From: Amoebophrya sp. A120
Taxonomy: Eukaryota; Protista; Dinoflagellata
Assembly (NCBI GenBank): GCA_905178155.1
Contig: CAJINV010000002.1
Coordinates: 11,874,729 to 11,938,728, forward strand
Length of the DNA: 64,000 bases
Direction: 5' to 3'
The translations under genes were made by a program, and so were the position numbers. Under the pieces are notes generated by a model that was given only the letters and a program-made list of their open reading frames with translations, did no database searches and was not told where the DNA came from. Positions 3,001 to 52,077 of the stretch are shown here, piece by piece. Every line of letters begins with the position of its first letter. Within the stretch, counting starts at the first letter, position 1.

Positions 3001-6000
3001 GGGCTTTCCGCAAAACCAACACCATATGATGATGGCGCAAAACAACATGCACGGCATCGCCAACGGTGCTCAGCAAAATCAAGTCGGAATGCAGCAGCTG
3101 CCCGTTGCTTCCCAAGATCTCACCCAAGGCACGGAAGCACTCTACCAAGCAATGCGCATTCGCTTTGACGAGCTCAAGATACCCGGGGAGCTGATGATGA
3201 AAACAGTATTTCAAAATTTCCATACACTTTCTCGCCCTTTGTTGTACATGCACTTAGACATCATCTTCCAGGCTCGCAGCGTACTATCGAATCAAAATCT
3301 GGATGAAGAGACAGTGCAAAGTCTGCTTGCTTTATATAGTGTGCAAAACCATAATATCCGCAACAAAATCATAGGCGGAATATTGTATGCACCTCGTAGT
3401 CACCAACGAGATTGACGTGGAGGTGCAGCAGGTGCTAGCGAACGCTCCCGACAACAACATAGTGCAAGTGCGCGGACAGATGATGCGTAGTGCACAACAT
3501 CGTGGGGCGCAGCTTTTGGCCGCCTGGGCCGTGCGCGAGGATTTGTTCTTTGACGTAAAGAACCCTCCGACACTTACCGACCTCCAACAGACTATCATGG
3601 ATTGGTATAGCCGCGGCCAATGGCAGCAAGCGGATGGTACGTGGGGACGCAGGACCTTTAACGAAATCATCGCTGCACCTATGCACACGTACTTACCATT
3701 TTTCCCAATGATTATTTCTGACTAATTCTCAACTGATTTTTGCTCGCGGCGATCCGGATTGTTGCCGGCATGCTTGAGATGTCAAACTGAAATCTACTTT
3801 AACTTTTACAAAAACCCTTCTAGGGTAGTTGCCATGTTGAAGATGAGTCAGCTTAGTACTTAGAGGCTGTGCAACAATTGGACCCCCTTTCGCCAAGGCG
3901 AAAGGGGGGGGGGGTAGGTTGGTCCAATTCCGGAGGACGGGGGCTGGCACCCCGACGCAAGGGCGGCGGGGGCTCCCGTCGGTCTCGCCCCACAGACAAC
4001 AATCGAACGCCCGGCGGCTCTTCTTCGTGTGCCGCCTTCGCAGGTGGCGGCTGTTCGGTTGGTCGGCAGTAGGCCCACAGGCGTACGCAACACGGCCGAA
4101 ACCATTTGCCTGCTATCTATGGGCGAGTCCAGAACCGGGCGCGCCGTAGCATGTGCGTCGGGGCGGGCAGCCCTAGGAGGGCGGGCGCCCGCGGTGTTTT
4201 TCTTCACAGACATTCCGAGCAGCAAGGTGCATCGGGTCGATTGCGGGCGCCCAATGTCATGACCCCGGGCTCCCCGTGCTGCTTGGGGGGGGGTTTGACA
4301 AGTCGGTGGGCACATGGGGTCGGCCCGAAGTTTTTTTGCCCCGTGTTGTGAGGCGCAGGCGGAGGGGGTGGGGAGGCATCCATGCGCGCGCTGTCAGGAC
4401 CGGCGAGCACAGACGGAGGCATGCAGTGTGATGCAAATGTAGTCCGAACGGGCGCGCGCAGCGCGCCCCGCAAAATTTGCCACATTAGCACTACGCGCCC
4501 GCCACCACAAATAAAACGAACAGAACAAACCTGCTCGGTTTATCGGCAGCGGGCGCGCGCAGCGGGCCCCGCAAAATTTGCCACATTAGCATCACGCGCC
4601 CGCCACCACAAATAAAACGAACAGAACAAACCTGCTCGGTTTATCGGCTGCGGGCGCGCGCAACGCGCCCCGCAAAATTTGCCACATTAGCATTACGCGC
4701 CCGCAACCACAAATAAAACGAACAGAACAAACCTGCTCGGTTTATCGGCAGCGGGCGCGCGCGGCACGCCCCGCAAAAATTTCCACATTACCAGTACGCG
4801 CCCGCCGCCACAAATAAAACGAACAGAACAAACCTGCTCGGTTTATCGGGAGCAGGCGCGCGCAGCGCGGCCCGCAAAATTTTCCACATTACCATTACGC
4901 GCCCGCCACCACAAATAAAACAAACAGAACAAACCTGCTCGGTTTATCGGGAGCAGGCGCGCGCAGCGCGAATTTTTTTGAATTCCGGCAGCGCGAGCAC
5001 TGATCGCAGCTCAAGGCCTGCTCGCAGCGGGCACGCGCACCGCGCCCCGCAATTTTTTTCACTGCGCACAGCTCCCGGCGAAAGGGGGGGGGGAGGGGGG
5101 AGGTTGGTCTCCAGCGGGCCGCTACCCCCCCTTTCGCCATGGCGAAAGGGGGTCCAATTGTTGCACAGCCTCTTACATGTCTTTACGCTAAAAAATAGGA
5201 CTGGTGACGTGGCACCCGTGCCGTCACCCAGCCCGCCCACTTCGATTCCGGTCCGCGATCTGACAGAGGAGTTTCAGACGCAGCTGCATGGCACGGTATT
5301 GTGAAATTTTTGTTTTTTCATGTTGCGGTTTCATCAAAAGTTGTATGAGATTGTCGTAAGTGTCGTGTTGTAACTCTTGGAGTATCGCCTTTTGATCATG
5401 GGTTGTGAGTTGCTGGTGTAATTTAGTGCTGCTCAGCTCGAAAAAGTACTCTGTAGAAGTAGGAGCTCTCCTGGTTTTCGCAGATCTTCGCCCGATTTCA
5501 TCACGTTCTCTCGCTTGGGGTTTTTCGAAAACTTCACACGCGAGGAACTTGCGCCTGCGCAAACGATGGAAAAAAAGATCGATCCTCCACGCATTCTATT
5601 TACTCGTACAACCCGAAAGGACACTTCTCGCTCTTTCGCGAAGACGCAACGAAAGCCAGTTTGTATGTGTCTAATACTACGCACCTACACACCAGGTGGA
5701 GGGAATGCTGCAATACAATGCGCAACACATGGAGCATGCGCGCAAGGCGTTGGATGCTCTGATGACAGACCAGCTGGAGTGGGTTAAGGTGTTTAAGAAC
5801 GAGCAGGTGCTTCAGACGCTGTTCAGATCCAATCATCACGTTTTTAGCACGTGGCACCCCCACATCAACGGCCTTGTGAACCACATCAACGCCGTTTGGC
5901 ACACGAATCCCAACTTTGACTTCGTGGCGAATCTGGGTTCCCCGCACCACAAATTGCCAGACATGCCGGGGCTGAGCAGTCCCCTGGACCAGGCCACGAT

Positions 6001-9860: not shown

Positions 9861-12489
9861 AGAAAGGAGCAGGCACAAGGCGGACTACAGTTCCCGGGCT
9901 GACGATCAATTTCGACAGTTAGAAGCTGTGCTGCTTTCCCCTGTTCTTTCCGGTTCTAGTCGTTCGCGAGGATAGTAAGGATCCGCTCACTCCGACTCCC
10001 CGCGCCATTGCTACCGCCGCACGATCTCCAACAACGCGATCTCCTGATGTGATTGCAAAATGCGCGACTTCATCTCCCTCGTCCCATCCCTGTAAAAAAT
10101 TACAATTCACAAGAACGACACCCGCGTGCGACCCCGGAGCAGTCTACTAACTTAGCTGTTTTTATCGAATAAGATTGGAGCAGGCCAGCATCAATCTTCT
10201 AGTTAGGAAAAGCAATCGCAATCACCAAGTAGTCAACGTAAATACAAAAGTGACACCAGTTGTCAAAAGATGAAACTCAGTAAATGATAAACTCGACCAT
10301 TGCCAGTAAGTGTCTTGCGGTGGGGGTTCGTCTAAAGTAGCACCACACAAGAAGACCCTTGTTGGCAAGCGCAAACGTCGGGCAAAGAAGTTTTTCTCGT
10401 TTCCATCACAAGCAACCCTGGCGTTGAGCGATCGAAATTCAAGATAAAGTTGCTGCGTTTGATTTTTTTTTGAAGTTGAGGAATTTTTTTAAAAAAGGAG
10501 TTTGACCAGAAAAACGCAGGTCAAGCATCGCGGCAGGGAACAAAGAAAGTGTCGTCCTCTACAACTGGCATTGTTGTAGCTTCCATAATACCTTTAGGCC
10601 ATTATCAGGATAGCCGTGAGAACCGATTCAGCTTGTCCTGTGCGCACGCTTATTTTACAGATTAGCGTGAGTGTGGGAACCGAAGGATGAATGTGATAAG
10701 TACTACTTGTCTAGTTTCCGAGAAGCATAAGTGGTGACGCATGAAGATGGTCACACAATCTCAAGGTCGCCGGTATCTGCATCTGAGACTATAACCGAAG
10801 GAAAAACTACAAGCAGTGCCGGCTTTTTTCAAGTACTGGCTAGAGAATACAGATTGAGAGTCAGCAATTACTGGTCGATAAGGCTGCTCCCGTATCCATT
10901 TACCAAGTTTGGTACTCTCCAACGACACGGATGAGGAGTGCCAGTAGATGGACGCGAAAACTTAAACTCGTCGAAAATTCTTGTGCTAGCAACACGCATC
11001 AACATTTCAAAAGAAAATTATAATCAGCAGAACTTGTTTATTTTGTCGTGAGGAAGCAGCTGCGCCTGCGCCCGCTGGGTTTTTGACTGGATACACATCA
11101 TTTTTATTTACTCTAGACTACGGCGCTTCTTCATGAATAGGACGTATGTACCCAACGAATTGAGTTTCTTTGAAATGATACAGGTCATCCCCCGTATTAT
11201 TACTAATTGGAATTGGAATCTGTCGCTTCTAAGTCTGTTACAGCTGTAGTTTCGAAGGGCAAGCATTTCTTGTGTCTTCGAGCGTTTCACCAAAAAGTTT
11301 ATACCACTCTCGTCCTCACTACTGTACGTAGTTTGTTTACAGCAACACATATGAGAATCAATGTATCTTTCACGCATTCGTACTTTCACTTTTCAATTGC
11401 TCCTGTTCCGGTTCGTATAGGAGGATTCTTGGAACTACAAGAGCACGCTTTTTCATCTTTTTTCGTCAATGTACCTACAAGCAGCACAAGACGGCTTATC
11501 TATCTAATATCTGAAATTAATTGTTGTAAGTTGCTGTAAGTTGTTGCTAACGCTCTCGCTCGCATTACCCTTCATGAATTATCTGTTCACCTACAGTACT
11601 CCACTACTCCTCCACCCGCATTGAATTTTGTTTTTTCGGGTCCAGCTTCTCCTCGGTACTCCGACTTCAGTTAGTCGCGCCGTTGCAAAGCTGGAATTCC
11701 GAAAAGCGCAGCGCCACTTCGATGGAACAAGTTATTTTTCGATGTGCCGGCTTCACTATCTTAATCTTTACGTCTGGATGTCCTTCCCCTTTGTCGATCT
11801 CAGCTGTCTCAACGTATCTACCGGTAGGAACGGGGATTGGCGATGAATTTGAGGCAACTTTTTATGAGCAGGGGACACAAAATCAAACTCAAAGTGTTCA
11901 GTGTCCCGTTCTGAGAGCTGTTTTTTTGTGTGCTAGATTCGGTCAGTTGTTTTGTCCGTGCTTGCGCGGAAGCATTTTTTTTTGTCGATGATTGGCACCG
12001 AGAGCGAAGCAGTTTTTTTGGTATCCATATATTCGATTTGGAGTTGGACGTCGAGATGAGCGTCAGTAATTTGAGGGAAGTCCCCATCCTTGCGGGCCCT
12101 CATACATTCAGCACTAAAATGAAATGCTTTGTTGCGATTGTACTTCAAATTCTTGCAGGCTTCTTGGGAGCTTTGTCTCACAAAGTCCTTGATGTAAAGA
12201 TTTCTTAATGTTGGACGAATTAAAAGTCAGTGTCAGACGAATCACAAGCACAACATCGAATGCATGCTAGTCGCACAGCAGTTGCGAACGGTCCAGAAGA
12301 GTTTGTGACCGTGTGATTGAATCGGCTGTACGACGTTGTGCCCCTCCTACACGAAAAATTACAGTATTTTGACAAGCAGAGAAAAGTCGCATTGCGGTTG
12401 ATCTTAATAGATTTCACTAGCTCATCAGTCCCCCCGTTTTTACTTTTGAAGATTTTCATCGTAAGCCGCATTACTGAAAACACCAAAAG

Positions 12490-15326
12490 ATGGCGGCGGT
12501 CGCAAGCACCGCCTCGGGCGGCGGGTTGAAAGTTTTCACCGCCGACGAGGTGGCCAAGCATAATACCTTTGGGGATCTGTGGTTGATCGTTGACAACAAG
12601 GTCTACGACGTGTCCAAATTTGCCAACGTCCACCCCGGTGGCAAGCATATCCTGCTCGACGTTCCGAACAACGATGCCACGGAATATTTCTACGCGTTCC
12701 ACGCAACGGACGTATTTTTCGACAAAATGTCTTTCATGATGCATATTAAGTTTCCCCCGATCATCTTCTTCAAAACGCCGAGGATTTTTTTTTTGGCTGG
12801 TATCGGTATGATCAGTGCTCCAGGTCTGCCCCGTCATTATGGTTTTTTCTTTTTTGAGCTGGTCTTTTTCCACCCAATTTCTCGTTTTCATTTTTCATAT
12901 GATGAAAATGCAGGTGCTTGACAAGTACCACAAAAAGTTGTGTATCGGCACTGTGGAGGGCAAGACCGAGCAAATCTATGAGCCGAAGCAGAAGGCCAAG
13001 GGCGGCAAGAAGCTGGATGTGGCCACCGCCCCGGCGGAGCAGCTGCTGAAGGAGCATCCGCTGCTGTGCCGCACACCCTTTGGCGAACCGGCAAGTATGA
13101 AGCGGTTCTACGCGAGCCCCTACCATAACGAGACGCACCTGCGATTTCGCCTCGGGTGCCGCGAGTTTTTCCACGAAATGCTACCGGAAGCGGAGGAGCT
13201 GGAAGAGAGTCAGGACTACATTCCCAACGAAATCTGGGAGGAGTTCGGAAAAACGGGCATGTTTGCTTGCTCCATCGGCGTCACCGCCATGCCGGCCGTG
13301 AAAAAACTGGGGTTGCCGCTCCCGGGAGGCATCAAGCCAGAGGAATTCGACTTCTTCCATGAGCAGATCCTCCATGAAGAAGCGGCAAGGATACTGCCAC
13401 CGAGGTAAGCAGTCAGGTTTGATACGTATATAGTACAAAACAATACGAATATTACTCTGGTGGGTCAACCTCTTATGCCCACGCCTCAACTTGATGACCC
13501 AGGATTTCTGCGAGTTGTGATGCTGTTCTCAGAAATAAACCAACGAAGCAAATTGTGATGAGCTAAAAACGTAGTTCAATTTCAATCAAAAATTTCAAAA
13601 TCCGATACAGCTTTCTGGATGGTATTTTTGCGGGTTTCAACATTGGTCTCCCCCCGATCATGAACTTCTATCACGGTCCCGACAAAATGGAGATGATTGC
13701 CAACATCCTGCTCGGCAAGAAAAAGGTTGCCCTCGCGATCACTGGTCCGGAGGCGGGTTCGGACGTGGCCAATCACCAGTGTATTGCGAAGTTTTCGGAA
13801 GACAAGAAGACCTTCACGGTGCGGGGCTTGAAGAAGTGGATCACCGGTGGCTGCCAGGCCGACTACTTTGTCACCGCGGTGCGTACGGGCAAGCCTGGCC
13901 TCAAAGGAATCAGCATGCTGTTGATCAAACGCGAGGACGGAAACGTGCTGACTAAGCAACTGTCAACCTCCTACGGGAAAACCGCAGCCACCGCACTGGT
14001 TCAGTTTGAGGACGCCAAGGTTCCGGTCGAGGGCCGTCTCATGGGCGTGAAGAAGGGAGACGAACTGAACAAGGGCTTCCAGTGCATCATGCTCAACTTC
14101 AACCACGAGCGGTGGATGATTTGGTAAGTATTCACTTCCACTCAGACTGTTTTTTTCTGACAATAAGTCAATCTTGACATGAACAGTAAAGTAAAGGATC
14201 ATGTTGAAATGTACTACGACGCTCAAGCATGAAATTTTTCTCGATTACATTCGAAAAGACCGATCGAGCAATGATCTTCCACAGCGCCAATGCTCTGGGC
14301 ATGCAACGCGTCGTAGTTTCGGATTGCCTCCAGTGGTTGACTATCAAATGTAAAAATGTCTGGGTCTGGAAGATTGCCAGGTTTGTCATGCATGTTTTGC
14401 ATGACCCCTGACGTCTGTGATGCATGCCCTAGCATCACAGATTTTGTGAGGGCTACCTGATGCCTATACCGCATGACAAATGCTCTTTCAGTGCAGCAAA
14501 ACTTGGACTCTCTTTCTTGCTGCTCATGCAATACAGATTTTTTTACAATCCAAAGCCAGCATGACAAACATGCATTCTTCCAGACCCAGACATTTTTACA
14601 TTTGATATTGACCCAGCGGAAGGCCTTCGGTCGACCGCTGTCGGACCAGCCGGTGCTGCGGTTCAAGTTTGGCCAGATGGTGGCTATCCTGAGTAAAAAC
14701 GTACCCACACCAGAGTTGTAATGCAGATTCGCAAAGACATGAAGACTTGTAATGCGCATCCCCATGAGAGCCATTTCCAATCGTGTTTTGGAATTTGTGA
14801 TGCTGTGAACAGGATGAGCAGCTGGATTTGTGATGCGGCTGCACTTGCTAACCTGCACTACACTGCAGAGTGCAACTTGTCATGCGTGACTCGCAAAACT
14901 CCTAGGTTTGTGTTGCAAAATCCTCATCCTGACTCTGGTGTGGGTGCGTTTTTACTCAGGATAGTGGCTGCTCTGGAGTCACTGCAGAGCTACATGGACC
15001 ACGTCACCTACCAGATGAAGGTGTACTACGACCGGGTGATGAGCGACCCGAAAACCTGGAAGACCCGGGATTACCTCGCGGGCGAGATCGGGCTGCTCAA
15101 GTACCAGACCACCCGCGTGAGCACCTTGCTCGCAGACAACGGGTGCCAGATTTTCGGCGGCCGGGCGGTCACCCGCACGGGCATGGGGAAGAAGATGGAG
15201 CGCTTCAACCGCATGTACAAAATCTCGTCCATCTACGGCGGCAGCGAGGAAATCATGGCCGACCTCGGGGTGCGACAAGCGCTGCGCGAGTGGACGCCCG
15301 AAGACAAACTGAAAGCCAAGCTGTAG
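12490..15326 (+). CDS. Cytochrome b5-domain / acyl-CoA dehydrogenase fusion with C-terminal PTS1-like AKL
   Basis: Exons 12490-12711, 12914-13404, 13611-14123, 14285-14341, 14613-14684, 14969-15326. b5 motif WLIVDNKVYDVSKFANVHPGG; ACAD motifs ALAITGPEAGSDV, RGLKKWITGG, NFNHERW, QRKAFGRPL, CQIFGGRAV, IYGGSEEIM. The last two introns are non-canonical. Confidence 0.92.
14342..14607. mobile_element. Introner-like non-canonical intron 1 (TIR element, 5-bp TSD TTGAC)
   Basis: 32-bp perfect TIR TATCAAATGTAAAAATGTCTGGGTCTGGAAGA; TTGAC at 14337-14341 and 14608-14612; removal restores QWLT|QRKAFG. Confidence 0.92.
14685..14963. mobile_element. Introner-like non-canonical intron 2 (TIR element, 5-bp TSD GTGGC)
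   Basis: TIR TATCCTGAGTAAAAACG(T/C)ACCCACACCAGAGT; GTGGC at 14680-14684 and 14964-14968; removal restores GQMVA|ALESLQ. Confidence 0.92.
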
Positions 15327-17775
15327 ATGCGAAAAATCGTTCAACATCATCTCATTTTTTATGGATGTACTACCCAGTTGTGCTTGCAGTCTCTGGCGGT
15401 GCAGCATCGCACAGCATGCAGCTGCGGCACCGTGAACTTCGGTCCAGGCACGAAGCAAGGCTGTTTTGTTTGTAGGACGTGTGGAAAGATTGATTCGATA
15501 CAAACCAGCACCTGTCACATAGGTCATGTAATTACACGTATATAGTAGAAAATTCGATTGATAATGAAGGTAAATGATAGGAAAAGAATATAACGCCCTT
15601 GTATCTTCAAAGTATAGGTTCTTTCTTTGTAGTTCTTGTTGAGTCAATTCTTCGAACCGTAAACACCGTATCGGAAACTAGTTGAAGAAATAGTACCAAG
15701 TGCACTAATGCCCTATGATGCAGGAAACTGAAACAATTTTCTAGACTTGTCAAAGGGAAGTTTAAATTTTATGGTAACCATCCAAAGCCGAATCGAGGGA
15801 CAGTCTTGCTTTGACGACCCTGGTTCGCAAGTTCTTAGAGGCAGTGATAGAAAACATGTCTCAACGAAGTAATCTTCAGTTCTTTGGTACCGAAAGAAAT
15901 TGTGCACAGCGTTGTATAGATGTAACTAAACCCTGAAAATCAAAATGACGCCGAATAAGGAAAGCATTAGAATGACTACACATGATATGATGATTCGCAA
16001 TCGCAGTGCATCTGCGGCGACAAAAGTAGTAGCCGGCCCTCGACTCTCACCCTCCTGTAGACTACCTAGCTCATTTTCCACCCGATTCGATGTTTCGTCA
16101 AGATTGTCCCATGATAAACGAGCGCAGCGCATGCTGCAGTTTCGGCGCTCGAAAATAATCCAGATAACAGTCGGCCATCGATGATATCGCATGTAAAATT
16201 TTCCAATAATTACCACTATGTTTATACAAAAGCCAGAAGGTGCGCGTTTGCAAAAAGAAAAAATTACAGACAAGAAGCGTGCGGGTGTAAATACCAATGC
16301 GGAACACAACTCTGACTGGGATTGGGACAACTTGTCGCCTCGAGTTAGGTTTATTGATTCGATAAAAAGCTATTTTTGTACGTTGGCTTTTTTGTTGAGA
16401 TCCAGCTAAAGGTTGAGGCGTCGAGAGGCCACATTCGCACATATGCCAAAAGGCACAGGGAAACTCAATAACGTCATTTTACGTTTCTGACAAAAGCTGC
16501 ATCAAGATCAGGGAAAACAAAGAAATAAACGATATAATAAGTGCTGCGAATTTTTCGGGGGATAAAGATTAAGATGCTGTTCACCTGTATAATCTGTGTT
16601 CATTATCCTGATCTACGTAGAGGAAAGATTTTATCACGCGCCTGGCTAGTAAACAAAAACCACGATCGAGCAAAGCGAAGTCCGAGAAAGCACCTGCTGC
16701 AAGGTGACGGTCAGCACGCATATCCATTTCTTCTCTGCATTAGCAAACTGATTGGTGAACACGGAGATGCAACACAAATACAGCAGTCTGCTTCTATGTC
16801 TACCTTCTAGAGATGATCGATACAACGTGTAAATACAGTTTCATTTATTCCACATGATTCCATGTTAGTAGCTCGGATTTAATACTTCGTAGTTGGTACT
16901 GATTTGATCGTCTGCAGAAACTAAACACGAAAAAAGAACATAAGCTTCTGGCAGCACGCGCAACGCCGCGCACCGGGTTTTTTTTTGAAGCAACACGCAC
17001 AAAAACCGAAAGTACCTGTACATCAGCAAACATATTGGACTTTGCTTTATTCAGCCTCTAACAAACTTTCCTTTATCCAGCTTCGTGCGCAATACGGACG
17101 CAGCCGCAGGAAGAGCAGACTTTTTGCCTGCGTGGTTCGCTGAAAAGGGCACGATCGCAAGCCGGGCGACAAGTTCCCGCATCTTTCCCTGCCTGCGGAC
17201 GCAACAATCTGGACGTAGAAGTGCAGTGCTCGTCGGACCCTGAAGAGCGAAAGCAAAGTGGAACACGTCGTGTACTCTCCTGATTTATTTCCACCTGGCG
17301 CGAATCTTGTTCGTCTTACCGGCCAGAGAGAAGCATCTTCCACCACCGGAGTCCTTGATTTTTCTCGTAGCGACGCGGCGGAGCATCTCTGAGGAGTGTA
17401 GAAGTGCTAGCCTCCTGCAATCAGGGTGGTAGGACCTTTTGAAGCGGCCGCATCACCTCCGACACGCAGCCCTTATTCTTCGCAGAAGAAACCGCAATAC
17501 CAATACACCAAGCAACGAACCAAATCTTATCTGTCACAACAATCGCAAGCAAGAAGCAAGTAGACGGCATGGATTTTGGATGCTGGCAGACAACCTGATA
17601 AGCTAGAATATTTGTAAAAATATATTACCGAGCTGAGCAGCAGGCGCAGGGAAACCACCTGCTATAGCAGCTTCCGACTTACGCGACCAGGGACGCCCCT
17701 GCAGTTCTGTGTGGATTGGTCAAAATAGAGGACGCAAAACGACGAAAGATCGCGGCCGACCCGCTCCCCGGAAAG

Positions 17776-22898: not shown

Positions 22899-25800
22899 AT
22901 GTTGATTTTTTTCACCACTTCTTGATGTATCCGTTTCACAAGAAGTTGCCTGTTGGCGTTACAATCCAACTTTACCTTGTTAAAACGATTGCAAAGAACT
23001 TTAGCAAAACACTTAGTCCTATAATATCAAATCATCCTCTCAGATCCTTGTTACGATTTACCAAGCTATAGGCTTGTCAGACACGCCGCTTCGGCTTTGT
23101 TTCAAAGCGCGCAAGCAGTAGTTTACGATTTATCCAAAAAGTTGCAAAATGTCAGGAAGCGATACGGTTTCAGCAGGCGATTTACCAGTTACGATTTATC
23201 AGACAACAGCGTTCACGTTCGAAATGATAGAGCAAATTGTTAAAATGTTATCTACCACACTAGCTGCAGTGATTTAGAGCATGCAGTGTAGGAGCAGTCC
23301 TGCCCAAAGGAGAGGAGCAGCTGGAGGAGCTCGAAAGGAAAAACATGCAGCGGAAATGCACCAGCCACGAGGCTCAGTTTGGACTGCGTTATTTTACGAT
23401 TTTTCATGTTATCAATTTTGGTGCTTGGACTCAACATTCAAATTTACACCCGGGCAACTACTGTCGTGATCGCGCGCATTGAAAACCAGAGGCACAGTTG
23501 TTCTGAAGGAATGAACTCTTTCTCTGCTGCTCTGTTGGAGACGATCTGTTTTTTTTGGTCTCTTTTGCGCAGCAGGTGGGTGACCAAAAGAGGAAGCGAC
23601 CATTGTTACGTACGAATACAAGACGGGCAAGCTAGGGTGATTGAATTAAGATAAGGAGATGCGCAGCCGGTCAAGATCAATTTTTCGGGATCAATGCTGG
23701 CAAATGCTCTGATGCTTGTTCTTTCACTCTTTGAGCACCTCCACGAGGATCCTTTTTGTGTGTGTCAAGTCTGTGTGAGTCTTTCTCTTGTCTCAGCGCA
23801 CGACCACGATAATCATGGTGAAGTAGAAGAACGCTATTGGACCGAAACTAGATACGTCGAAAAATAGACACGGAACCAAGTACAGGAGGCATTGACGTCA
23901 CCTCTTCTTTTCTGATTTTGAACCACTTTTACAAGAACTTCCCCACGAAGAAACCCCAAGCATCTTCGAACAAACATGTTGGAAGGGCTCGCAACTTTTC
24001 CGGTTGTGCTGAGCTGCATGGCCGGCTGCCCCGCTACGACGAAAGCTGCGATGCTGCCGTTTGTGTCGCTGCTCGGAGCTGCGTACGGTCCCGTAGACAT
24101 GCGTCAGCAGGGGTCTACCAGAAAAGCGGTTGGCGAGACGTAAGAGAGAGTTACAACAATTGAAGCATTTGAGTAAACGAGCCTAAATTTTCCAAGGAGC
24201 AAGTTTTGATTCCGGATGCTGTACTGCTGTATCACGAGAAAAGCGAGCTGACAAATAAATTCGGCCCGACCCAATTTCAGAGTCGTGCTAAACTATAAAA
24301 TCAGGTCGACCCAGCGCCAGGACAAGAGCGCCAAAGATTACGAAGTGTTTCTCTTTGGGGAGGATACTGCAGGCAGCGAGACGGTGGCGATGGGCCAGAC
24401 AGGTTTACGTGCGACGCAATGAATCGGAAGTGGGACGAGTGTAGCTGGAGCAACCTTATCTTTGCTCTTGCGTACGATATTCCTTTCCAGATTCTTGACG
24501 AGGAGCGCCTGCTGCTATCATCAATCTGCGCAAAAAAGAACGGTTTCCTAGAAACAAAAACACTTTTTATATTTCCCAAGACCTACACGTACACACGATT
24601 CCTGTTGATATATCTCTTCATGTTGATACCCACCAAGGCAATTTTCCAACCCGTTTTGTAACTTGAGTAAGTATTTCACAGACATGGCATGAAGAAACCA
24701 AAGCCGAAGGACGAATATCGTCTTCGACAGTGAGACACTGTTTATGAATGGTAATAAGACAGCTCGAGTTGTGCAGGCGAACTATTTTTGCATCCCTGGA
24801 AGATCCGCCCGCTTCCGTGCAACAACGCACTGAAGATGCCTTTAGTATTCGCAAATTTTTGCTTTTGCCTGTTTTCTGTTCGTGCCCACTGTCGCGCTCC
24901 CCGTCGTATCGGTGCGTCCTTTTCCTCTTTCTGCGGTTTGATTGGTTGATCGATATTTCGTCCCGAGTTCGCGGCGATCTACCTGAGTTCTGCGTGTGAG
25001 GAGCGTGAGGCGCGGTTGTGCATTTGGTTGTCCAACTGAGAGCGAGTGTTGCGGCCAGTCCTTGCGCGCTCGTCGATTTGGAGAGTAAGCCGAGCGTGAC
25101 AGGCAAGTCCGTGATAGGCAAAGCGCGTCGGGCAAGGCCATTAATACAGATCGACGGCGTCGCGTGCAATGGATGCAACGCGACCGAGCAGCAAATGCAC
25201 CTCGGAAAACTCGCGATCGGACTTTTTTGGTTGTGGCATCTTACGTACTTATTTGATAGGAGAGAGAAAGAGGGAATTCGCCGTGCCAGTTTCTCGCGGT
25301 ACTACTCGCTTCACAAAACTGTTTAGCTGTAGACCTGCCGCGTCTCTCATCCGTACGGACAAGAGGGCTCAGGTAAAACAAGCGCAGCGGTGCCGCAATA
25401 TTTATTTTGTAATGAATTCACTTCGGCGCCGCCCGCCCATTTCGAGCTACGGACTTTGCTAGTCGTCTCCTTCTTCATTTTCAACCGACATCTCACAGGA
25501 CGCGCTTGCAGAATTATGCTCCAGTGCTAAGCTTCATCAAGCTTTCCGTTCCAACAACAATGGACTCAGATTCTGCGAGTGAAGCCGTCGGCCCCTCCGT
25601 CCTTAAGATGAGGAGGATTAATACCAAGGGCGACGGGAGGCCGACGGCTTTGCAGGGGAAAGAGGATCACGCAGCGGCCCATCATGGTGCAGCGGGGGAG
25701 GAAGAAATCAAGGAAGCGGATCCGCCAGAAGATCTGCGGGGAATAAACGGAGACAACATTAAGTCCCCTGCGTCTTTAAGATGAGGAGACTTAATCCTCA

Positions 25801-27059
25801 GGGCGACGGACAGGAGGCCGACGGCTTTGCGTAGGAAGGGGCGCGCGCGCGCCGGACGGACCTCCGCGCCCGCGTGCCCGCGCGCGCTTCCGGTCGCATG
25901 TTCGCAGGATCGTGCGCGCGCTCGCAGACCACGCCCCTCGCGCGCCCGCGCGCACTCCCCAGAACGCAGGAGCAACGGGCGTGCCCGCGTGCGATGGGCA
26001 TGCGCGCGTGCGCAAGGTCGCAGCTTCGCGCGCCTCGCGATTTTTATCGCAGGATCGCGCGCGCGCAGGCAAGGTTTGGTCGGGCCCGCGCTTGCGCTCT
26101 TTCAAATTTTACTGTGCGAGGAACCGGCCATGATCATGAATCAAAGTTAAGTGAACGCCTCGGCTTGACGGCCGAAGGGTCTTGATGATGGACTGCAGGA
26201 CCGCGCAGAGAAACGACATTTTGCAAAAGATGAAAAGGCATCGTACTTTTCGCAAAAGATGAAACTTCCCCAGCAAAGATTCATTTCTGTCACAAGTTGC
26301 GGGAGCAGATTAGTCGCTTTGTCGCGATCAAGCCTCCAGTGAGTGTATGTTGTTCGCCCCTGCGTTTTCAGTGTCTCAACAGGCGCCGTGTAGTCGTGAC
26401 TCATACCGGAGCAATCGTAGCGGAAGCCAGACATCAACGTCGTATCAATAAATCTGACGCGGAGGGCCCAGGCAAGATGACACAATGGATCCATGTTGCA
26501 CAGCAACCAAATAGAAAATAACGTCGTGAGATGATCGATCTTTAGGAAGATCCGAATGCAAAAGGCAAGCTGCAAATGCACTACAAGAAAATTGCGATCA
26601 GGATAGAGTCACGGAAGTAAAAAAAGGGAACAGCTCTCCGTGCGAAGATCCCGAACAAAATCAAACCGCACCAGAACGTGGGTGCTGACGCGAAGATCAA
26701 GAACAACGCTACAGCGATTCAAATTCAGAAATTGGTTCACGCCTCTTTCAGTTCAGGTTCGACACTGTACGTTTTCCCTACTACTTGATAGATACGGTGG
26801 TCTCTCAGTGTGAATGCTCCCGGTCTGTGTAGTTTCGTAGAACCACGGACGCTCTACTTCGACTTACGAAAACCGTCCGTTTAAACTTGTTTGGATGTCA
26901 TCGACATCACATGGCTTTCGCTTGCCGTCGCCATCGCAAGCGAACATTTATTTCTGTGTGGGCTCTTGTGTTTGTTGACCATACCTAATGAAGGTGTTGT
27001 GACCACGTCCTTTATCTTATCCTGTAATACTCGCCACGATTACGACACCAAAACACATC

Positions 27060-42672: not shown

Positions 42673-44520
42673 ATGGTGGTGCCCCTGCCGCCAATCTACA
42701 TCACCCCGGTGCCTTCCGAGTACGCACTAAAATGTCGTCCCTGGTTCACCGTTTTCGCGTTTGTCATGCTGGTCGAATCCATCCAGAAGATGTTTCTGGA
42801 TCTCGAGATTTTTCCGGGTTTCATATCAAAATGAAAAATCCCCCCTCCCCATATCAAAACGGAAATTTGTGATGCTCATTTGTGACCACAAATCAGCTTT
42901 GTATTGCAGAGAGGCACTGCGGCCAGATCCCCAGGCTAGGTAGGGGCGTATGGGTCTAGTAGTTCAGCATGGCAAACGGCCCCCCTTTAGGCCCAACAGC
43001 ATGACAAATCGCTTCCACAATGGGGCGGAAGCTTCTGGCCTTGTCTTCTTGCAAGACAGATGTGATTTGTGACCTCAAATCCGCAACGCAAATTTTTGGA
43101 AACATACCTTTTCAATATGGGGAGGGGGGATTTTTCCTCTCAATATTTCATGGTGGCGATCCTGGCTGGCGTGGGGTTCTACTGCCTGCGCGACAAGTCC
43201 GTCGACATGCACTGTCTCATGACTTGGGGTAAGTATGTACTTGGCAGGGCGAGATGCTTCATTCACATTTTTTGTCAAGCGCAAGCATGACGCTCTGAAG
43301 TTCGCTGTACGACCCCACAGATCTTACATAGAGACCATAATTTCACTCGGTAGAAGCAACTAAAAGGGAACAGGTCGGTGGTGAATCGAATGCATTATGT
43401 TGAAGAAATGGATTTTCAAACTGAATCTTAATGCAGGCATGGTGTGCATGATCAATGGGGTTCTTACGGTGGTGTTGCTGATTGATCGAGTCGTGCGTCC
43501 CATGTCCGAGCCGCTCTTCGTCACGAGCAACGACCAACTGCGGGACAAAGGCGTTTGGGTCCACAACACGAAGTCCCTGATCCGCATCGCAAGTCCCGTA
43601 GCGATGTTGTGCGTCGCCGGGCTCACCTATCGGGTAAGTACCTACTGATCATGCTGATGTTTTGTACACCACGTCAACGGACGATCTTTCTTTATTTATT
43701 GCCTCTAAAGGTGCTAAAGGTGACGAATTTTAATGACATGTTTCTTACTTTATGAGGTTTACAACGAGGTGATGGATACCCTCGACGATATGGCGGCAGA
43801 CCAGCAGGTGCGAAATAATATGAAAGTGAAAAGAGTTGTGGGCGCGCAGCGACAGAAGCGTCTTCATGATGTGTTTATATCAGAAATATGTGAAAAATTC
43901 TTCATCTACATCTTGCTGTACGTCTGAGATCACAGGTTTTATCCGCAGCTGCGGATCAAGGTTTGATCCGCAGCAACATGCTCGCTTGTTTAAGTAAGCA
44001 TCACAGGCGGAAGATCACGTATGCGAAATTCAGCACTGCTATGTGACGAAGACGATGGTCATGTTGCTGCGCATCTACGGTTTTTCTTTTCCAAAACGAT
44101 TGCGATACAAGAGCAGCGAGAGCAATACGTCGCGGGGACAAAATATTCTTCGAATCTCGATCGGCTTTTTGTTGTTATATAATTCTAACGACGCATTTCC
44201 ATTTGCATTGCTTTGATTTTGATGGGCGAAGGGACTTTTCTGAGAACAATTTGAATTCAGTAATGAGAGCTACAAAGAACTACAATTTGCAGATGGTAGC
44301 TAAGTTGTGTCGCTAAATAGACGAGTGCCGGTTCCCACAACAGCAGAAGTAGAGCGAGATTTGTGGAAGTTTTTAAGCGAGCTATACAGCAGAGCAGACG
44401 CAGCGGCTGAACCAACGCCAGAGCGCAGGTGCGCCACAAAATACGAATGCCAGCAATACCGGCACGACGTTCACACCCTTTGGGGGAGTTGGTAATCAAT
44501 TGGGCGGAGAACTGGACTAA
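42673..44520 (+). CDS. Multi-pass membrane protein with C-terminal SHP-box-like motif (paralog 2)
   Basis: Exons 42673-42823, 43151-43228, 43437-43633, 43757-43807, an uncertain middle exon, ~44378-44520; MVVPLPPIYITPVPSEYALK, GVGFYCLRDKSVDMHCLMTWG, FTPFGGVGNQLGG match paralog 1. Confidence 0.78.
42824..43145. mobile_element. Introner-like non-canonical intron 3 (imperfect TIR, 5-bp TSD TTTCA)
   Basis: Left TATCAAAATGAAAAATCCCCCCTCCCCATATCAAAA vs right reverse complement TATTGAGAGGAAAAATCCCCCCTCCCCATATTGAAA; TTTCA at 42819-42823 and 43146-43150; removal gives PGF|MVAILAGVGFY, colinear with paralog 1. Confidence 0.9.
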
Positions 44521-46247: not shown

Positions 46248-48167
46248 ATGCCACCTAAAGAGCCACAGAAGGGGGCCAGTGCGCGAAGCTCATCGGCTCA
46301 CCGGAGGACCGCGGGCGGGTCCCGTAACCTCTCAGCAAAAGGCAAGGACGCCGCAGCAACCTCGGTGCCGGCGCAGCAGGATACTACTAAAATCTTCTCT
46401 ACGGCACCGTCTGGCGGGACAGAGAAGAAAAAAAATCCACGCGACGAACTTGCAGCAGCCGCGGCTTTAGCAACTAGATGCAAGGACGGCTCCAAGGGAA
46501 AGAGTGCGGCCGTGTTCAAGAAAAACCCCGCCACTAGTCATCCCTCGTCTAGCAGCTCATCCTCTATCTTCGTCTCAGATCGCGCCAATGCCGCAACCAA
46601 AAGCAAAAACAAGGAAGCGGGTGGCATAGCGCCATCAGCATTGACACGCGGACGAAGTACTGACGTCAAGAACAAATCCAGTGCTGGCAGTAGTAGCTCC
46701 GGAACCGCAACAAGCTCCAAGTCGGTGAAAAAGGTTGTATCATCCGCCTCCGTTGGTCATGGTCGCAGCAAGGGCGCAGCTTCTTCAGTAGCAGTACCAC
46801 CACCCGGCAACGTGAACAATGCGGCCCTGGATGCCGCTTCTGCTGATGAGGGACCTGCTCCTGCAGTACGGCGTCGACAAAAAAAAGACAGCTTTGAGAA
46901 GGGCGTGTTCATGCCGCAATTTCTGTTCAATTTCGAAAACGAACGCGAGAAGGACCAGCTTGCTAAGCCCGAAAAATACGAGTCCGACGGCGAGACTGTG
47001 ACGGAAGCCTGGAAGGACTACACTCGAGCTAACCACGCCAGGCGCGAGCGGCTCCGGTATTGGTCCAGCAAGCCTCTCACCGCAGAGACAAACAACAACC
47101 GTCAAGGGGCATCAGCATTCCAGACCAGGTTCGAGCAATGGCAACGCGACTACAGGTATCGAGAGCATCCGGGGCCAGCTATTCGCGCGACGGAGCAGGG
47201 GAGTGAAGCGGCGAAAGCTGGCGATGAGGACCACGCTCATGATGATGAAGATGAAGATCATTTTTTTCAAGCGGAAGAAAAAGATGATGGCGATGATGAT
47301 GATGATGATGAAATCCATGGTGATGGAGTAGAAGACGTTGCTGCAGAGATCGCCAGCTTCGATGATCTCCTGGACGACGACATTAAAGAGAGCAGTATGC
47401 CGATTGCGGTCCGCACCAAGAAACAGGACGCAAAGGCGCTCCACACACTGGAGATCCACCAGAAGCAGAACAGCACAGCAGCAGCAGAACAGCAGCCCCG
47501 TCTGCAGCATCGCGATAACCATGGTGCGAAACAACTACCACCACCCGCCTCGCCTTTGCGAGACAGGAAGCAGAGCATCAACAAGCGCCAAGTCGCTGCG
47601 GACGTTTTCCAGTATGGACTCGAAGCAGAGGCGGAGATGGAGGAGATGAACTCAGTTGCGCAGATCGACTTGGAATTAAACGGCTCAACTCCAGGTCCGG
47701 ACGAGAGCAAGAATGAAGACGAGCAGCTGGCCTTGAATAGTAAGAAGGCGAAGTTTTTTGCTCTGAACAGTACGAAGAACAAAAGCAAAGAATCAATCTT
47801 CTTGCGGAATAACGGCCCCGGAAGCAGCTTGTTGTTCTCACGGAGCGCAACTCCGCGGAAAAGCACCCCAAGACGTGTGACCGCACATGACAGAAGGGAG
47901 TTGCTTCGCGACAAAATCGCGATCGAGAAGTTGGACACGGCGCGCAGAAGCAGGAAGTCAGCTGCAGCATCTTCTGCAGATAAACCATCAGCGCCTGTCA
48001 CTCCTGCTTCCTCTTCTTCGGCTGACATAGGAACTTCGCAGGAAAGCGGTCAAGCAGCGCGGACGACTCCTGTTTCGCAGGAACGTGGATTAGGGGGCGA
48101 CGTCGCGGGGGAACCCTCTGTGACCTATGGCAACGAAATCTTGAGTCCTGGCAGCCGGCATTTTTGA
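46248..48167 (+). CDS. Low-complexity (S/K/A/D-rich) hypothetical protein; may continue by splicing into exons at ~48.2-49.8 kb
   Basis: 639-aa ORF with coding-like composition; downstream open hydrophobic segments 49085-49345 (ending at GTAAG) and 49571-49830 look like further exons. Confidence 0.6.
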   Translation: MPPKEPQKGASARSSSAHRRTAGGSRNLSAKGKDAAATSVPAQQDTTKIFSTAPSGGTEKKKNPRDELAAAAALATRCKDGSKGKSAAVFKKNPATSHPSSSSSSSIFVSDRANAATKSKNKEAGGIAPSALTRGRSTDVKNKSSAGSSSSGTATSSKSVKKVVSSASVGHGRSKGAASSVAVPPPGNVNNAALDAASADEGPAPAVRRRQKKDSFEKGVFMPQFLFNFENEREKDQLAKPEKYESDGETVTEAWKDYTRANHARRERLRYWSSKPLTAETNNNRQGASAFQTRFEQWQRDYRYREHPGPAIRATEQGSEAAKAGDEDHAHDDEDEDHFFQAEEKDDGDDDDDDEIHGDGVEDVAAEIASFDDLLDDDIKESSMPIAVRTKKQDAKALHTLEIHQKQNSTAAAEQQPRLQHRDNHGAKQLPPPASPLRDRKQSINKRQVAADVFQYGLEAEAEMEEMNSVAQIDLELNGSTPGPDESKNEDEQLALNSKKAKFFALNSTKNKSKESIFLRNNGPGSSLLFSRSATPRKSTPRRVTAHDRRELLRDKIAIEKLDTARRSRKSAAASSADKPSAPVTPASSSSADIGTSQESGQAARTTPVSQERGLGGDVAGEPSVTYGNEILSPGSRHF

Positions 48168-48433
48168 CGATTCTACTTTTTTGCATTCCCATCATAAGCT
48201 GCTTCGTTCGTTTGTCAGCCACAGGCAAATCGTTTTCGTCGTGGTTGCAGACGACCATGGGGGTGTTGCCACAGCTGCTGGCGCTCTCGAAAATGAAATG
48301 CTCCAAAAGCACGAGTTTGCTGTGGTCCTTGACTCAAAAATTTTATTGCGATAGCAACCACGCCCTGGAACAAGGAAGGCAAGAAGTGGTTTCTGGACGA
48401 GTGGCTCCGCCGCTAGCAGATAGAGGGTATGCG

Positions 48434-48668
48434 TTGCAAACGTGTCAGTCTGGGTTTGGAAGAGTTTCGATGGTGATGCTGCCTCAGATTTCAAAGGGAA
48501 AGAAAAGAGAATCCGTATTGCAGAGCAGTTTTTTCTACACGGAGAGCGCATTTGTCATGCAGGAGAGGCATTAAAAACCCGATGCTAGAGCATGCATTGA
48601 CAGACCAGAGTGCCATGGTGCATGGCAAGCTTTGCAGAGTCCCAGACCCAGACATTTTGCATTTGATG
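48434..48668 (-). mobile_element. Diverged copy of introner 1 family, opposite orientation
   Basis: Colinear blocks shared with the reverse complement of 14342-14607: GTCTGGGTTTGGAAGA, AATCCGTATTGCAGAGCAG, GCATTTGTCATGC, GATGCTAGAGCATGCAT, CCAGACCCAGACATTTTGCATTTGAT. Confidence 0.75.
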
Positions 48669-51600
48669 GCGGCATCGATCTCGTAGCTGCAGAAAGCTCT
48701 CTGCTCGCCTCCGCAACAACCCGTGGCACAAGCCGTCTCGACCATGGAGACCCCTGCTCAGGCACCACGGTGCGCGCCGAGCCGTCCAAACGATGTCGGG
48801 AAAGCATCGAATTTTTCAAGCAGTTTGCATTGCTATCGCCCGAGAAGAATCTACTGGTGTCATTGTGGTGTACTTTATGGTCAATGTCTTCCAAAGTCGG
48901 ACTGCGCTTGTTCTTCCAACGCTAGAACTACATAGCGTTCGCGTGACATGAACACGCGTGCTCGTGAAAGTGATATTTTATTCCCGCTTGCGCGTGGTCC
49001 ACTCTGAAGCCCTCGCTTCCGTCCAGGTCTTGCGCCATCGTCTCCCTGAAGAAATTGTTGCTTGATATTTTTTCTCGTTGATAGTTGCATTCGGCGATTG
49101 TGTTGTTCGGGAGTTTTTTCGAGATCGGGCTTGGCGTCGAACGGATCTTCCTCTACAAAGCAATCTCGGTGCACCACAGTGACTCGCGCGTGCTCTTTCT
49201 GCTGTGGGGGCTTCGAGCGGTTTTTGTGCTGATCGTCCTCTTCCTGAAGTGGAGCGCACAGTGCCGCTCCTTTCTCCTGGGGGTTCTCGGGACCAATGTC
49301 GGGCTGTTTTGCGCAAAGCGGTTCGACGAACAGGCAGGGTCGGGGTAAGTGCGCGAGTCTTTGTTTAGTTCCAAAAAAGCATGGTCATTCGCACTCCATA
49401 AAAGGACTCCGCATTCTAAGTGTTCGAAATGTTTCGCCTTCTGCTCGACGAGCGAGTCCGTGTAAGTCTAAACTTCTTTTATTTGAAGACCACCATTGAC
49501 ACTGAGTGTCCGGGAAAGTCAATTGATGTATACTAGAAACATCACAAAAAAAAACAATTGAAACTACAGAAACTGGTGGACCGGGGCTGCGCTGATGGAC
49601 TATACAAGCGACGGGGGCATGTGGCGATGGCTGGAAGAAAATCTTCACGCATGACGCTGCGCCTCCGTTTGGGACAACATGAAGGCCGCGGGATGTCATG
49701 CACTGACTTGGCTATATTGGCATGGGCATCGCTAGCTTGCACCAATCAAATTTACTTATTTACAACGCTTCGGAGTTTCGTCAGTTTGGCACAAGAACTA
49801 CAGCCAGCATTCCATCACGCGGGCGGAAAAGTAATCAAATCAAAGAACAGTTGAAGACAGACGCAATCTCGTTGCTCCGAAATCTTGCGTCCGGAAAGGT
49901 TCAGATGCACGATATCAATTATTCGGAATTACCAAGCTTCATCAGATGTACATAATAAGATACAATCCCTCGAACGAAAGGTCTATCAATTGGAATTTTT
50001 CGAAAGCTTCAACAGATGTACTATATCAAGCATTTTTGTGTGCGTACAACAACAATTGTGTGGAGCGGAAAAATTCGGATGGCGGCCTCCTGCATCCATG
50101 TCCATTGGCAGGAAAAGGCAGAATCGCGAGCGTGTTCAGCCCCCTGGAGCTCTTGCAAATTCATCGGTGTTGGCAGTGGCCGAGTTCGTCACGTCGCTCG
50201 GTCGGTTACTCGCTCCCAAGTGAGTCAGGATCTTGGACGTTTCAAGTTTAAACTCAGGATCTTCGGAACCCGAAAAAAAAGAAGAAAAGTCGTTGTGAAG
50301 GCGCTGTGGCGAAGGCTCTGAGCGCTGTGAAGTAGATGTCGTTTTTTCTAGTTAGTATATAGACAGAGATATGTGCGTTTGTTGTGGTTAGGTTGTCCTG
50401 GGGGAGATAGAGTCTTGGTAGTTTGAGTTTCGTCCTTCTCTGCATAAGTCTCACCAACTATGACGCTTTCCTCTTTTAGCAGTATGGTTCGTTAGTATAT
50501 TCGTGCAAAAAAAAAACTATATCCCGCGTTCTGTTCGTTCAAAGTTCGTTGCTATCTCAATCAAAATAAAAAAGGTCGTGCGTTTCCTGTAGTATGCCTC
50601 TAGTTGTGTAAATATCTTTGTGGAGGCAGCAGCGAGGTAGTGTTTTTGGTGAAGTAAGGAGTGCGCTGGTGTAAAAGTCAAACGAGCGCTGCGTTTGGCT
50701 TTGTTTTTTTTCCTTTTTTTCAACTTCCCGATTGAGTGGTGAAGAGAGACGGCTGACCTCGTGTGCGGCCTCTCATCCTAACGCCATCGTTGTTTGCTGG
50801 GGGACCGAGAGAGCTTTTAACCTGGTCGCCAGGTAAGGGCCGAGGAACGAGTTATAAGCTTCGCACTTCGTAGTCAAAGTTCCTCAAGCTCTGAGAATCC
50901 ATCATGCTCGCCTGGTCCCGATGCTATGGTGGAAAAGCAGACTCATTAACGGCAGCGAAAGTCCAAAAAGTCTCGGCTTTTCCAGGATCTCAAACGTATC
51001 GCCTGCAGTTTTCGTTAGGAGAGGTGTGCGCTTTCGTTAATAAACAATAACTCCCCGACCTAAAACTCGCCTTGACCTTTTTCAGGCGAGGCATCGGCTT
51101 TTTTTGATCTTCTGCAACCTAGCGCTTAGCGCGGTATACGCGATATAAGACTTTGCTTTCGAAATGAGAGGCGTGCGCTTTTCTTAGTGATTCGAAATGA
51201 GAGGCGCGCGCTTTTCTTAATATTAGTCACTATCTTCCCGACGTAGAAATCGTCTGTACCTTTTTCAGACGTGGTCGCGGCTTGTGTTTTTTCGAAGCAC
51301 TTGCCACGGTATAGGCGATGAAATGTGATCACCTTGCACTTCTCAAACCTACCTTGAGTGATATCTAAAACCTGAAAGCTTAGTTTTGTTGTAGCTCCCC
51401 CAGGCCCGCTCCTCGGAGCATAGTTTTTCAAATATCTTTCCATGACTCGCAACCCTCTAATAGAATTGATAGCCGGAGAACTTCCCCGAAGACTTTCGAG
51501 GGGTAGCAGCGCGAGAACGTCGCAAAGGGCGCGCGTGGACGCGTGGGCCACGAAGGACCCGCCTTCATTCTGAAGCTGTTTCTTTTTGAGAAACAAGGGG

Positions 51601-51765
51601 CCTACATTCCGTCCAGAAACGGGACGAGGAGAACGCGCTTTCTGACTTCGGAAGAGTTTTCATTTTGGAAGACTTCTCACTCGACTCCGGTCCGTTTCCC
51701 GCAGGGCTTCGAACAGCGGAGTGAGAGGTCAGCGACCTCCCGCTTCTGAAGCATTTTCATTCTGG

Positions 51766-52077
51766 AAAAGTGAGAAATCAGAAAAGTGAGAAATCACTGA
51801 TTTCTCACTTCTGAAAAGTTTCCATTTTGAAAAAGTAAGAAGTCACTGACTTCTCACTTCTGAAAAGTTTTCATTTGGGAAAAGTGAGAAGTCACTGACT
51901 TCTCACTCTGTTTCTCGAACACCTTCGAGAAACGGAGTGAGAAATCAGTGATTTCTCACTTGTGAAAAATTCTCACTCCGGAGTCGGAGTCGCGTTCACT
52001 CTTTCCAGAGTGAGAATTTTTCAAAAGTGAGAAATCAGTGATTTCTCACTACTTTTCTCGAAGGTACTTCGAGCCCC
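51766..52077. repeat. Array of 25-bp palindromes next to the assembly gap
   Basis: AGTGAGAA(A/G)TCA(C/G)TGA(T/C)TTCTCACT at 51785, 51834, 51883, 51936, 52026. Confidence 0.9.

What the first reader, a model, noticed from the sequence alone, without database searches (positions are those of the whole stretch)
14337..14612. Transposon-shaped intron with no GT-AG ends in a conserved enzyme helix
Seen: a 266-bp unit with a 32-bp perfect TIR (TATC...GATA) and perfect TTGAC duplication interrupts the acyl-CoA dehydrogenase frame. Removing it plus one TTGAC (271 nt) restores SDCLQWLTQRKAFGRPL. The six equivalent registers give TT-TA, TG-AT, GA-TT, AC-TG, CT-GA and TA-AC, never GT-AG, GC-AG or AT-AC. 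The nearest in-frame GT-AG alternative would delete about 10 residues before the conserved RxxFG. The rest of the gene is intact and its first three introns are canonical. Known: inverted/direct-repeat non-canonical introns (introner elements) have been reported in Amoebophrya, and to my knowledge their splicing mechanism is unresolved. Inference: the TIR hairpin brings the exon ends together and defines a second, structure-guided splicing route running beside the normal spliceosome in the same transcript.
Basis: partly seen in the sequence, partly recalled or inferred. Interest (0 to 1): 0.88.

Follow-up and report, generated by a model that had tools for sequence, protein, structure and literature searches.

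The report
Hairpin transposon intron of Amoebophrya
A small hairpin-shaped mobile element inside an enzyme gene of the marine parasite Amoebophrya is missing, to the base, from RNA assemblies although it has no normal splice signals; this kind of intron is already published, and older copies nearby suggest it is likely cut at one fixed position relative to the hairpin ends.

Summary
In detail: 266-bp element (14342-14607), 32-bp perfect inverted repeat, TTGAC duplication, no GT-AG, GC-AG or AT-AC in any of six registers. RNA contigs of two samples skip exactly 271 nt at full gene depth; the DNA run shows no such joint. The spliced 570-aa protein is identical to a public Amoebophrya sp. A120 protein, and the repeat fits the published A120 introner motif (TAT-N7-AAA; Farhat 2021). 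So this is a known kind, already annotated, and the hairpin idea is in that paper. Five have decayed duplications, and the only cut register that fits all eight is 1 nt before TAT and 4 nt after ATA. All then start N-T-A, like a GTA donor with a free first base. A related copy in the opposite orientation is spliced too. Farhat calls the borders variable or unknown. The machinery is unproven: an altered spliceosome (about 0.5) or a separate Euglena-like cut-and-ligate route (about 0.35).

The parts
14342..14607 (.). Introner element 1 (266 bp), TAT-N7-AAAAA termini
14342..14373 (.). Left terminal inverted repeat, 32 bp perfect
14576..14607 (.). Right terminal inverted repeat
14337..14341 (.). 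Left copy of 5-nt duplication TTGAC
14608..14612 (.). Right copy of 5-nt duplication TTGAC
14341..14611 (+). Inferred true intron (271 nt, CT..GA) under the -1/+4 register; length shown by RNA, register inferred from other copies
14685..14963 (.). Sister introner element 2 (279 bp, GTGGC duplication 14680-84 and 14964-68); inferred intron 14684-14967
   Evidence: removal inferred from contig coordinates (125 nt between pieces = 53 + 72) and identity to P0001
12490..15326 (+). Host gene: cytochrome b5-fused acyl-CoA dehydrogenase, 570 aa, six exons; GT-AG introns 12712-12913, 13405-13610, 14124-14284
42823..43149 (+). Young TAT element intron (327 nt, TTTCA duplication), spliced
43818..44099 (+). 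Old non-canonical intron (282 nt), allows -2/+3 or -1/+4
44125..44390 (+). Old non-canonical intron (266 nt), allows -1/+4 or 0/+5
48125..48357 (+). Old non-canonical intron (233 nt), allows -1/+4 or 0/+5
48427..48672 (+). Old relative of element 1 in the opposite orientation, spliced (246 nt), allows -3/+2 to -1/+4
48833..49087 (+). Old non-canonical intron (255 nt), allows -4/+1 to 0/+5

Best explanation
The element is a transposon-derived non-canonical intron (introner) of Amoebophrya A120 that RNA contigs lack exactly, together with one copy of its 5-nt duplication; it is likely cut 1 nt before the left repeat and 4 nt after the right repeat, probably by an altered spliceosome. Shown: exact removal, repetition in the genome, paired ends in folding predictions, splicing of a related copy in the opposite orientation. 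Inferred: (a) insertion as a MITE-like DNA element made the 5-nt duplication; (b) because the repeat is symmetrical, either orientation offers N-T-A at the 5' cut and a paired end from which the 3' cut is measured, so no AG is needed and the duplication restores the exon exactly; (c) the spliceosome keeps its +2 U/+3 A requirement but has dropped the first and last G. Odds by step: known A120 introner spliced from RNA 0.97; fixed -1/+4 register 0.8; altered spliceosome as the machinery about 0.5.
For: RNA joint 14336->14608 (skips 271, slide 5) at depth 135.5 and 38.8, equal to the three GT-AG joints on the same contig in X3 and X5; depth 0 in DNA run X1. Model identical to P0001, named Amoebophrya sp. 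A120 by its source. Ends fit TAT-N7-AAA. Register: TA at intron positions 2-3 is the only (position, dinucleotide) of 144 tested that 5 of 5 old introns can share; 0.022 expected by chance. Two old introns exclude 0/+5 and two exclude -2/+3. End-to-end duplex z = -2.6 to -10.0 for 8 of 8 non-canonical introns, against -1.3 to +2.0 for 6 of 6 GT-AG introns. Opposite-orientation relative: internal alignment z 14.8 against 1.1, spliced in 4 of 4 runs. Canonical introns here start GTA in 6 of 6. In Farhat Table S4, 9 of 9 listed top A120 sites are NT-xx and 9 of 9 for A25 are TT-xx; A25 repeats start TTA plus two purines, which resembles GTAAG. Nearly all spliceosomal proteins are reported present. 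A retuned spliceosome is proposed for Fritillaria (review section; preprint abstract).
Against: Nothing here tests the machinery. The perfect 32-bp stem would bury the donor (+2 to +33) and the branch region, +5 is not G in young copies, and there is no AG; a spliceosome would have to melt it. No 3' dinucleotide is shared by the five old introns at any of 9 positions. T-A at +2/+3 may simply be inherited from the transposon end rather than read. [quoted passage not shown] The register rests on 5 informative introns in two genes, from contigs of 2 samples of 1 study; the public annotation may rest on the same RNA data, and Table S4 may reflect aligner preference. Repeat termini of the five old introns are degenerate (scores 11.5-28.5, at or near shuffle background) and were assigned after the joints were seen.
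Confidence: 0.55

Rival explanations
1. A separate, spliceosome-independent route: an endonuclease and ligase recognise the paired ends, cut in a staggered way (-1/+4) and release a circle or linear intron, convergent with euglenid nonconventional introns.
For: Very stable terminal stems; orientation independence; no shared 3' dinucleotide; U1 snRNA not found. Euglena needs 3 nt before and 5-6 nt after its paired motif, a similar 3'-long stagger (PMC12501133 abstract and section 8); its introns are reported to leave as circles (review).
Against: T-A at +2/+3 in 8 of 8, in the positions of the GTA donor; A25 TTA-R-R resembles GTAAG; Farhat reports the same repeat layout in 15% of A120 canonical introns, which suggests a continuum; old copies with weak overall folding (z about -2) are still spliced. 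The Euglena CDG/CH'G motif is absent. No candidate enzyme is known to me.
Confidence: 0.35
2. The joined form arises in DNA (excision or an empty allele) or as a reverse-transcriptase jump across the hairpin between the 5-nt repeats, not by splicing.
For: Strong hairpin plus direct repeat is a known setting for template switching (own knowledge). Contigs drop rare variants, so rare empty sites cannot be excluded.
Against: DNA contig runs from the exons into the element and the joint has depth 0 in X1. Exon-4 depth in RNA (70.4 and 20.3) matches the spliced contig alone, so no retained form is assembled. Retention would truncate a conserved enzyme at codon 451. Old introns with only 1-2 nt of repeat are removed exactly and give open frames of 216 and 818 codons.
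Confidence: 0.05
3. The element is a self-splicing RNA.
For: Strong structure; no protein factor identified.
Against: No Rfam match in 12000-16000 beyond one chance hit at E 0.69; interiors of the eight introns are mostly unrelated; a reversed copy works.
Confidence: 0.03

Closest known systems
Introner elements among the non-canonical introns of Amoebophrya sp. A120 (Farhat et al. 2021, PMC7789003; read: abstract, sections 10, 11, 12, 16, 32, 36, supplement passages incl. Tables S4 and S7)
   Same: Same strain by protein identity; non-GT-AG intron; inverted repeat starting TAT-N7-AAA; 5-nt direct repeat; length near the 240-nt mean; repeated; gene with both intron types; hairpin proposed to join exon ends.
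   Different: Perfect repeat is 32 nt against the 8-20 nt motifs described. [quoted passage not shown] Supplementary figures S19-S25 are pictures I could not see and may already show this.
Euglenid nonconventional introns (PMC12501133: abstract, sections 8 and 12; review PMC11282704: section 6)
   Same: MITE-like origin, paired ends, fixed spacer from the paired motif to each cut with the 3' spacer longer, coexistence with GT-AG introns.
   Different: Needs CDG...CH'G and a purine at the exon start; absent here in all six registers. Circles are reported there, untested here.
Fritillaria borealis non-canonical introns (review PMC11282704 section 6; bioRxiv 10.1101/2025.08.15.670264 abstract and outline only)
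   Same: Transposon-derived, TIR and duplication, proposed removal by a retuned U2 spliceosome.
   Different: Dominant ends AG-AC and AG-AT; here only +2 T and +3 A are shared.
Introners in general, e.g. A120 families in Gozashti et al. 2025 (PMC12130899, passages)
   Same: TIR DNA-transposon-derived intron generators.
   Different: Most carry or co-opt GT/GC-AG ends; the passages read give no cut rule for A120.

Membership tests
Amoebophrya A120 introner element (Farhat 2021) | Non-GT-AG intron supported by RNA | tested here: met
   271-nt skip in X3 and X5; six registers, none canonical
Amoebophrya A120 introner element (Farhat 2021) | Inverted repeat (8-20 nt or more) pairing the intron ends | tested here: met
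   32 bp perfect, hairpin z -13.8
Amoebophrya A120 introner element (Farhat 2021) | 3-5 nt direct repeat at the borders | tested here: met
   TTGAC twice
Amoebophrya A120 introner element (Farhat 2021) | Repeat starts TAT, seven variable bases, three or more A | tested here: met
   TAT-CAAATGT-AAAAA in the sequence; motif
Amoebophrya A120 introner element (Farhat 2021) | Repeated in the genome | tested here: met
   summed DNA depth about 1.2 million on the left repeat against 42 on exons (not a copy number), 68 and 93 contigs with foreign flanks at the two ends; one relative in the window
Amoebophrya A120 introner element (Farhat 2021) | Organism is A120 | tested here: met
   spliced protein identical to P0001, source name Amoebophrya sp. 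A120
Amoebophrya A120 introner element (Farhat 2021) | Assignment to one of the 1,954 published families | not testable with these tools
   family models not held; no genome held
MITE (non-autonomous TIR transposon) | Short, TIR, duplication, no transposase inside, many copies | tested here: met
   longest open frame in the element 88 codons
MITE (non-autonomous TIR transposon) | Cognate autonomous transposase with the same ends | not testable with these tools
   no genome held; Farhat reports no transposase in A120
U2-type spliceosomal intron | GT/GC-AG ends | tested here: not met
U2-type spliceosomal intron | Lariat formation, spliceosome dependence | not testable with these tools
   only contigs cover the gene
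U12-type intron | AT-AC or GT-AG ends | tested here: not met
   minor spliceosome reported absent
Euglenid nonconventional intron | N3-CDG at the 5' end and CH'G-N5-6 at the 3' end | tested here: not met
   positions 4-6 in the six registers read ACT, CTA, TAT, ATC, TCA, CAA (sequence as printed; signature)
Group I/II self-splicing intron | Match to Rfam intron models | tested here: not met

The most novel reading that the evidence does not exclude
A120's tens of thousands of 'variable-border' introns obey one hidden code: cut 1 nt before TAT and 4 nt after ATA, in either orientation of the element, with no AG. It is read by a dedicated hairpin-measuring route, separate from the spliceosome and convergent with Euglena, that makes this transposon family harmless in exons.
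Probability: 0.28. Interest if true: 0.8.

Novelty: already known. Interest (0 to 1): 0.42.

Why it matters
The intron itself is one of about 30,000 published A120 introners and is already removed in the public protein. The open question is how introns without GT-AG are spliced in this parasite. A fixed -1/+4 register with an N-T-A start, if it holds genome-wide, turns that into exact predictions: where lariat or circle junctions should map, and which bases to mutate. It would also give gene finders a rule for most introns of this genome. I did not find the register in print: paper searches; 'Amoebophrya + A120 + lariat' gave 0 papers. Subscription journals (e.g. Roy 2023, not read) and supplementary figures were not visible.

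Tried and rejected
Whole genome not held, so no genome-wide register test or transposase search. Flanking or internal GT-AG use: many in-frame pairs are possible, none among displayed RNA joints (77 joints hidden). Joints dropped before counting: three X5-only joints (13851->14071, 14111->15237, 14115->15237; sides 21-30, foreign loose ends, likely another organism), all X1 element-to-element joints (other loci), and two joints inside the 42.8-kb element (42855->43110, 42875->43117; sides 23-30, likely shorter paralogous copies). Raw-read run X12 had no reads on the exons, so no read-level splicing rate, strand or circle test. A sequence-only scan for more degenerate elements did not separate from shuffles (61 hits against 36-45) and was not used. 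One search overflowed on the N run and was redone. Rfam: nothing. Review PMC13149111 has no mention of Amoebophrya; PMC9860276 and the Entamoeba preprint cite it only in references; PMC12005148, PMC11453091 and PMC12787238 passages give no cut rule. Earlier-findings look-ups by place and by sequence were empty.

Full report
Observation. The coordinates, the 32-bp perfect inverted repeat, the TTGAC duplication and the six non-canonical registers are all as described. Keeping the element stops the frame at codon 451. These two are the only elements in the window with a repeat of 15 or more bases, a 5-nt duplication and a length of 100-700; 20 of 20 shuffles gave none. Both fold into long terminal stems (z -13.8 and -8.5).

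Host gene and organism. Removing three GT-AG introns and both elements gives a 570-aa cytochrome b5-fused acyl-CoA dehydrogenase. It is identical to P0001, which its source names Amoebophrya sp. A120, so the public annotation already removes both elements. In 97 of 97 full-length homologues (120 fetched; P0001 and those under 480 aa left out) residues 405-470 have the same length, and W426, R430 and F433 around the insertion are invariant.

RNA evidence. In one search, contigs of X3 and X5 skip 14337-14607 (271 nt, slide 5) at depths 135.5 and 38.8, the same contigs and depths as the three GT-AG joints. The tool only guesses that these runs are RNA, but bins inside the canonical introns have zero depth. 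Run X1 covers introns and exons evenly at 42, runs from the exons into the element, and has depth 0 for the joint. The joint of element 2 was among 77 not displayed; it follows from the 125 nt between listed pieces (53 + 72) in both runs. Limits: contigs drop rare forms; X3-X6 are 2 samples of 1 study; the raw-read run X12 had no exon reads. Summed X1 depth on the left repeat is about 1.2 million, with 68 and 93 contigs leaving into foreign flanks at the two ends, so the family is highly repeated (not a measured copy number).

What is known. Farhat 2021 (PMC7789003) reports that over 60% of A120 introns are non-canonical, that 29,850 are repeated elements with inverted repeats and 3-5 nt direct repeats, that A120 repeats start TAT, seven variable bases, three or more A, and that the hairpin allows the exon ends to join. 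Both elements match that motif exactly. The paper finds no clear dinucleotide signature, calls the borders variable or unknown, finds no U1 snRNA and leaves the mechanism open. A 2024 review reads it as an adapted spliceosome. The finding is therefore a member of a described class.

Laying X3-X6 on 42400-49600 gave 11 joints: 3 GT-AG, 6 non-canonical introns and 2 dropped as likely paralogous copies. Five of the six have decayed duplications, which narrows the slide to 1, 1, 1, 2 and 4 nt. Relative to the TAT...ATA ends they allow -2/+3 or -1/+4; -1/+4 or 0/+5 (twice); -3/+2 to -1/+4; and -4/+1 to 0/+5. Only -1/+4 fits all, and it also fits the three young elements. An unbiased test over 9 positions and 16 dinucleotides found TA at positions 2-3 as the only one shared by 5 of 5 old introns (0.022 expected); nothing is shared at the 3' end. 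For the finding this puts the intron at 14341-14611, CT..GA. The ends pair better than shuffles in 8 of 8 non-canonical introns and in 0 of 6 GT-AG introns by a comparable margin (z -2.6 to -10.0 against -1.3 to +2.0). The intron at 48427-48672 is a relative of element 1 in the opposite orientation (z 14.8 against 1.1) in a plus-strand gene and is spliced in 4 of 4 runs. Spliced models of both genes are open for 216 and 818 codons. Farhat's Table S4 lists 9 of 9 top A120 sites as NT-xx and 9 of 9 A25 sites as TT-xx, which agrees but may reflect aligner preference. Against: five informative introns, two genes, one study, and degenerate ends assigned after the joints were seen.

Mechanism. Inferred: a MITE-like element inserts with a 5-nt duplication; its symmetrical ends give, in either orientation, N-T-A at the 5' cut and a paired end 4 nt before the 3' cut; the mRNA keeps four bases of the left duplication and one of the right, which restores the exon. 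I favour an altered spliceosome (about 0.5), because +2 T and +3 A sit where the GTA donor has them in 6 of 6 canonical introns here, the A25 start TTA-R-R resembles GTAAG, the first and last G are lost together (they pair with each other in the spliceosome; own knowledge), nearly all spliceosomal proteins are reported, and Fritillaria offers a precedent. The rival, a separate cut-and-ligate route like that proposed for Euglena (about 0.35), is favoured by the buried splice sites, the missing U1 and AG, and the similar 3'-long stagger. DNA excision or a reverse-transcriptase artefact (0.05) and self-splicing (0.03) fit poorly. Nothing here tests the machinery.

Earlier notes of this scan describe similar hairpin introns in other genomes, two of them with a fixed 3' cut; I did not check them and do not count them as support.

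Verdict. Real, spliced and already known as a kind and in annotation. The fixed register and orientation independence were not found in the papers searched, with supplementary figures and subscription journals unseen. They make the open mechanism question directly testable. Interest 0.42.

Noticed in passing
window 14685-14963: Second TAT element in the same gene, 72 nt downstream of the first; also removed.
   Followed up: yes
window 40155-41150 and 42674-44520: Neighbouring paralogous membrane-protein genes; the upstream one has no intron at the PGF|M site where the downstream one carries the 327-nt element, which suggests intron gain. My model of the upstream gene's first intron was not checked against RNA.
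   Followed up: partly
window 3863-5172: 1,310-bp element with a 33-bp perfect inverted repeat, TTA duplication and an internal tandem array; looks like a different DNA transposon (PIF/Harbinger-like, label recalled).
   Followed up: no
window 24731-26378, 51441-52835, 62445-63748: Further TIR-bounded stretches with 4-, 8- and 6-nt duplications; the second spans the N gap 52078-52672.
   Followed up: no
window 48397-48700: X6 holds a contig retaining the old inverted intron at depth 5.7 against 73.2 for the spliced joint: partial retention or pre-mRNA.
   Followed up: no
window 14342-14375 (reads from another locus): One copy of the element-1 family with foreign flanks is present in RNA of X3 and in about 100 raw reads of X12: an unspliced copy at another locus.
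   Followed up: no
X1 contigs laid on 14342-14963: Many loci have two elements separated by only about 30-40 nt (table 5c), implying micro-exons between adjacent introners; the window has a 26-nt exon at about 44100-44124.
   Followed up: no
window 42852-43106: A second TAT...ATA-like pair lies inside the 327-nt element, possibly a nested or older end.
   Followed up: no
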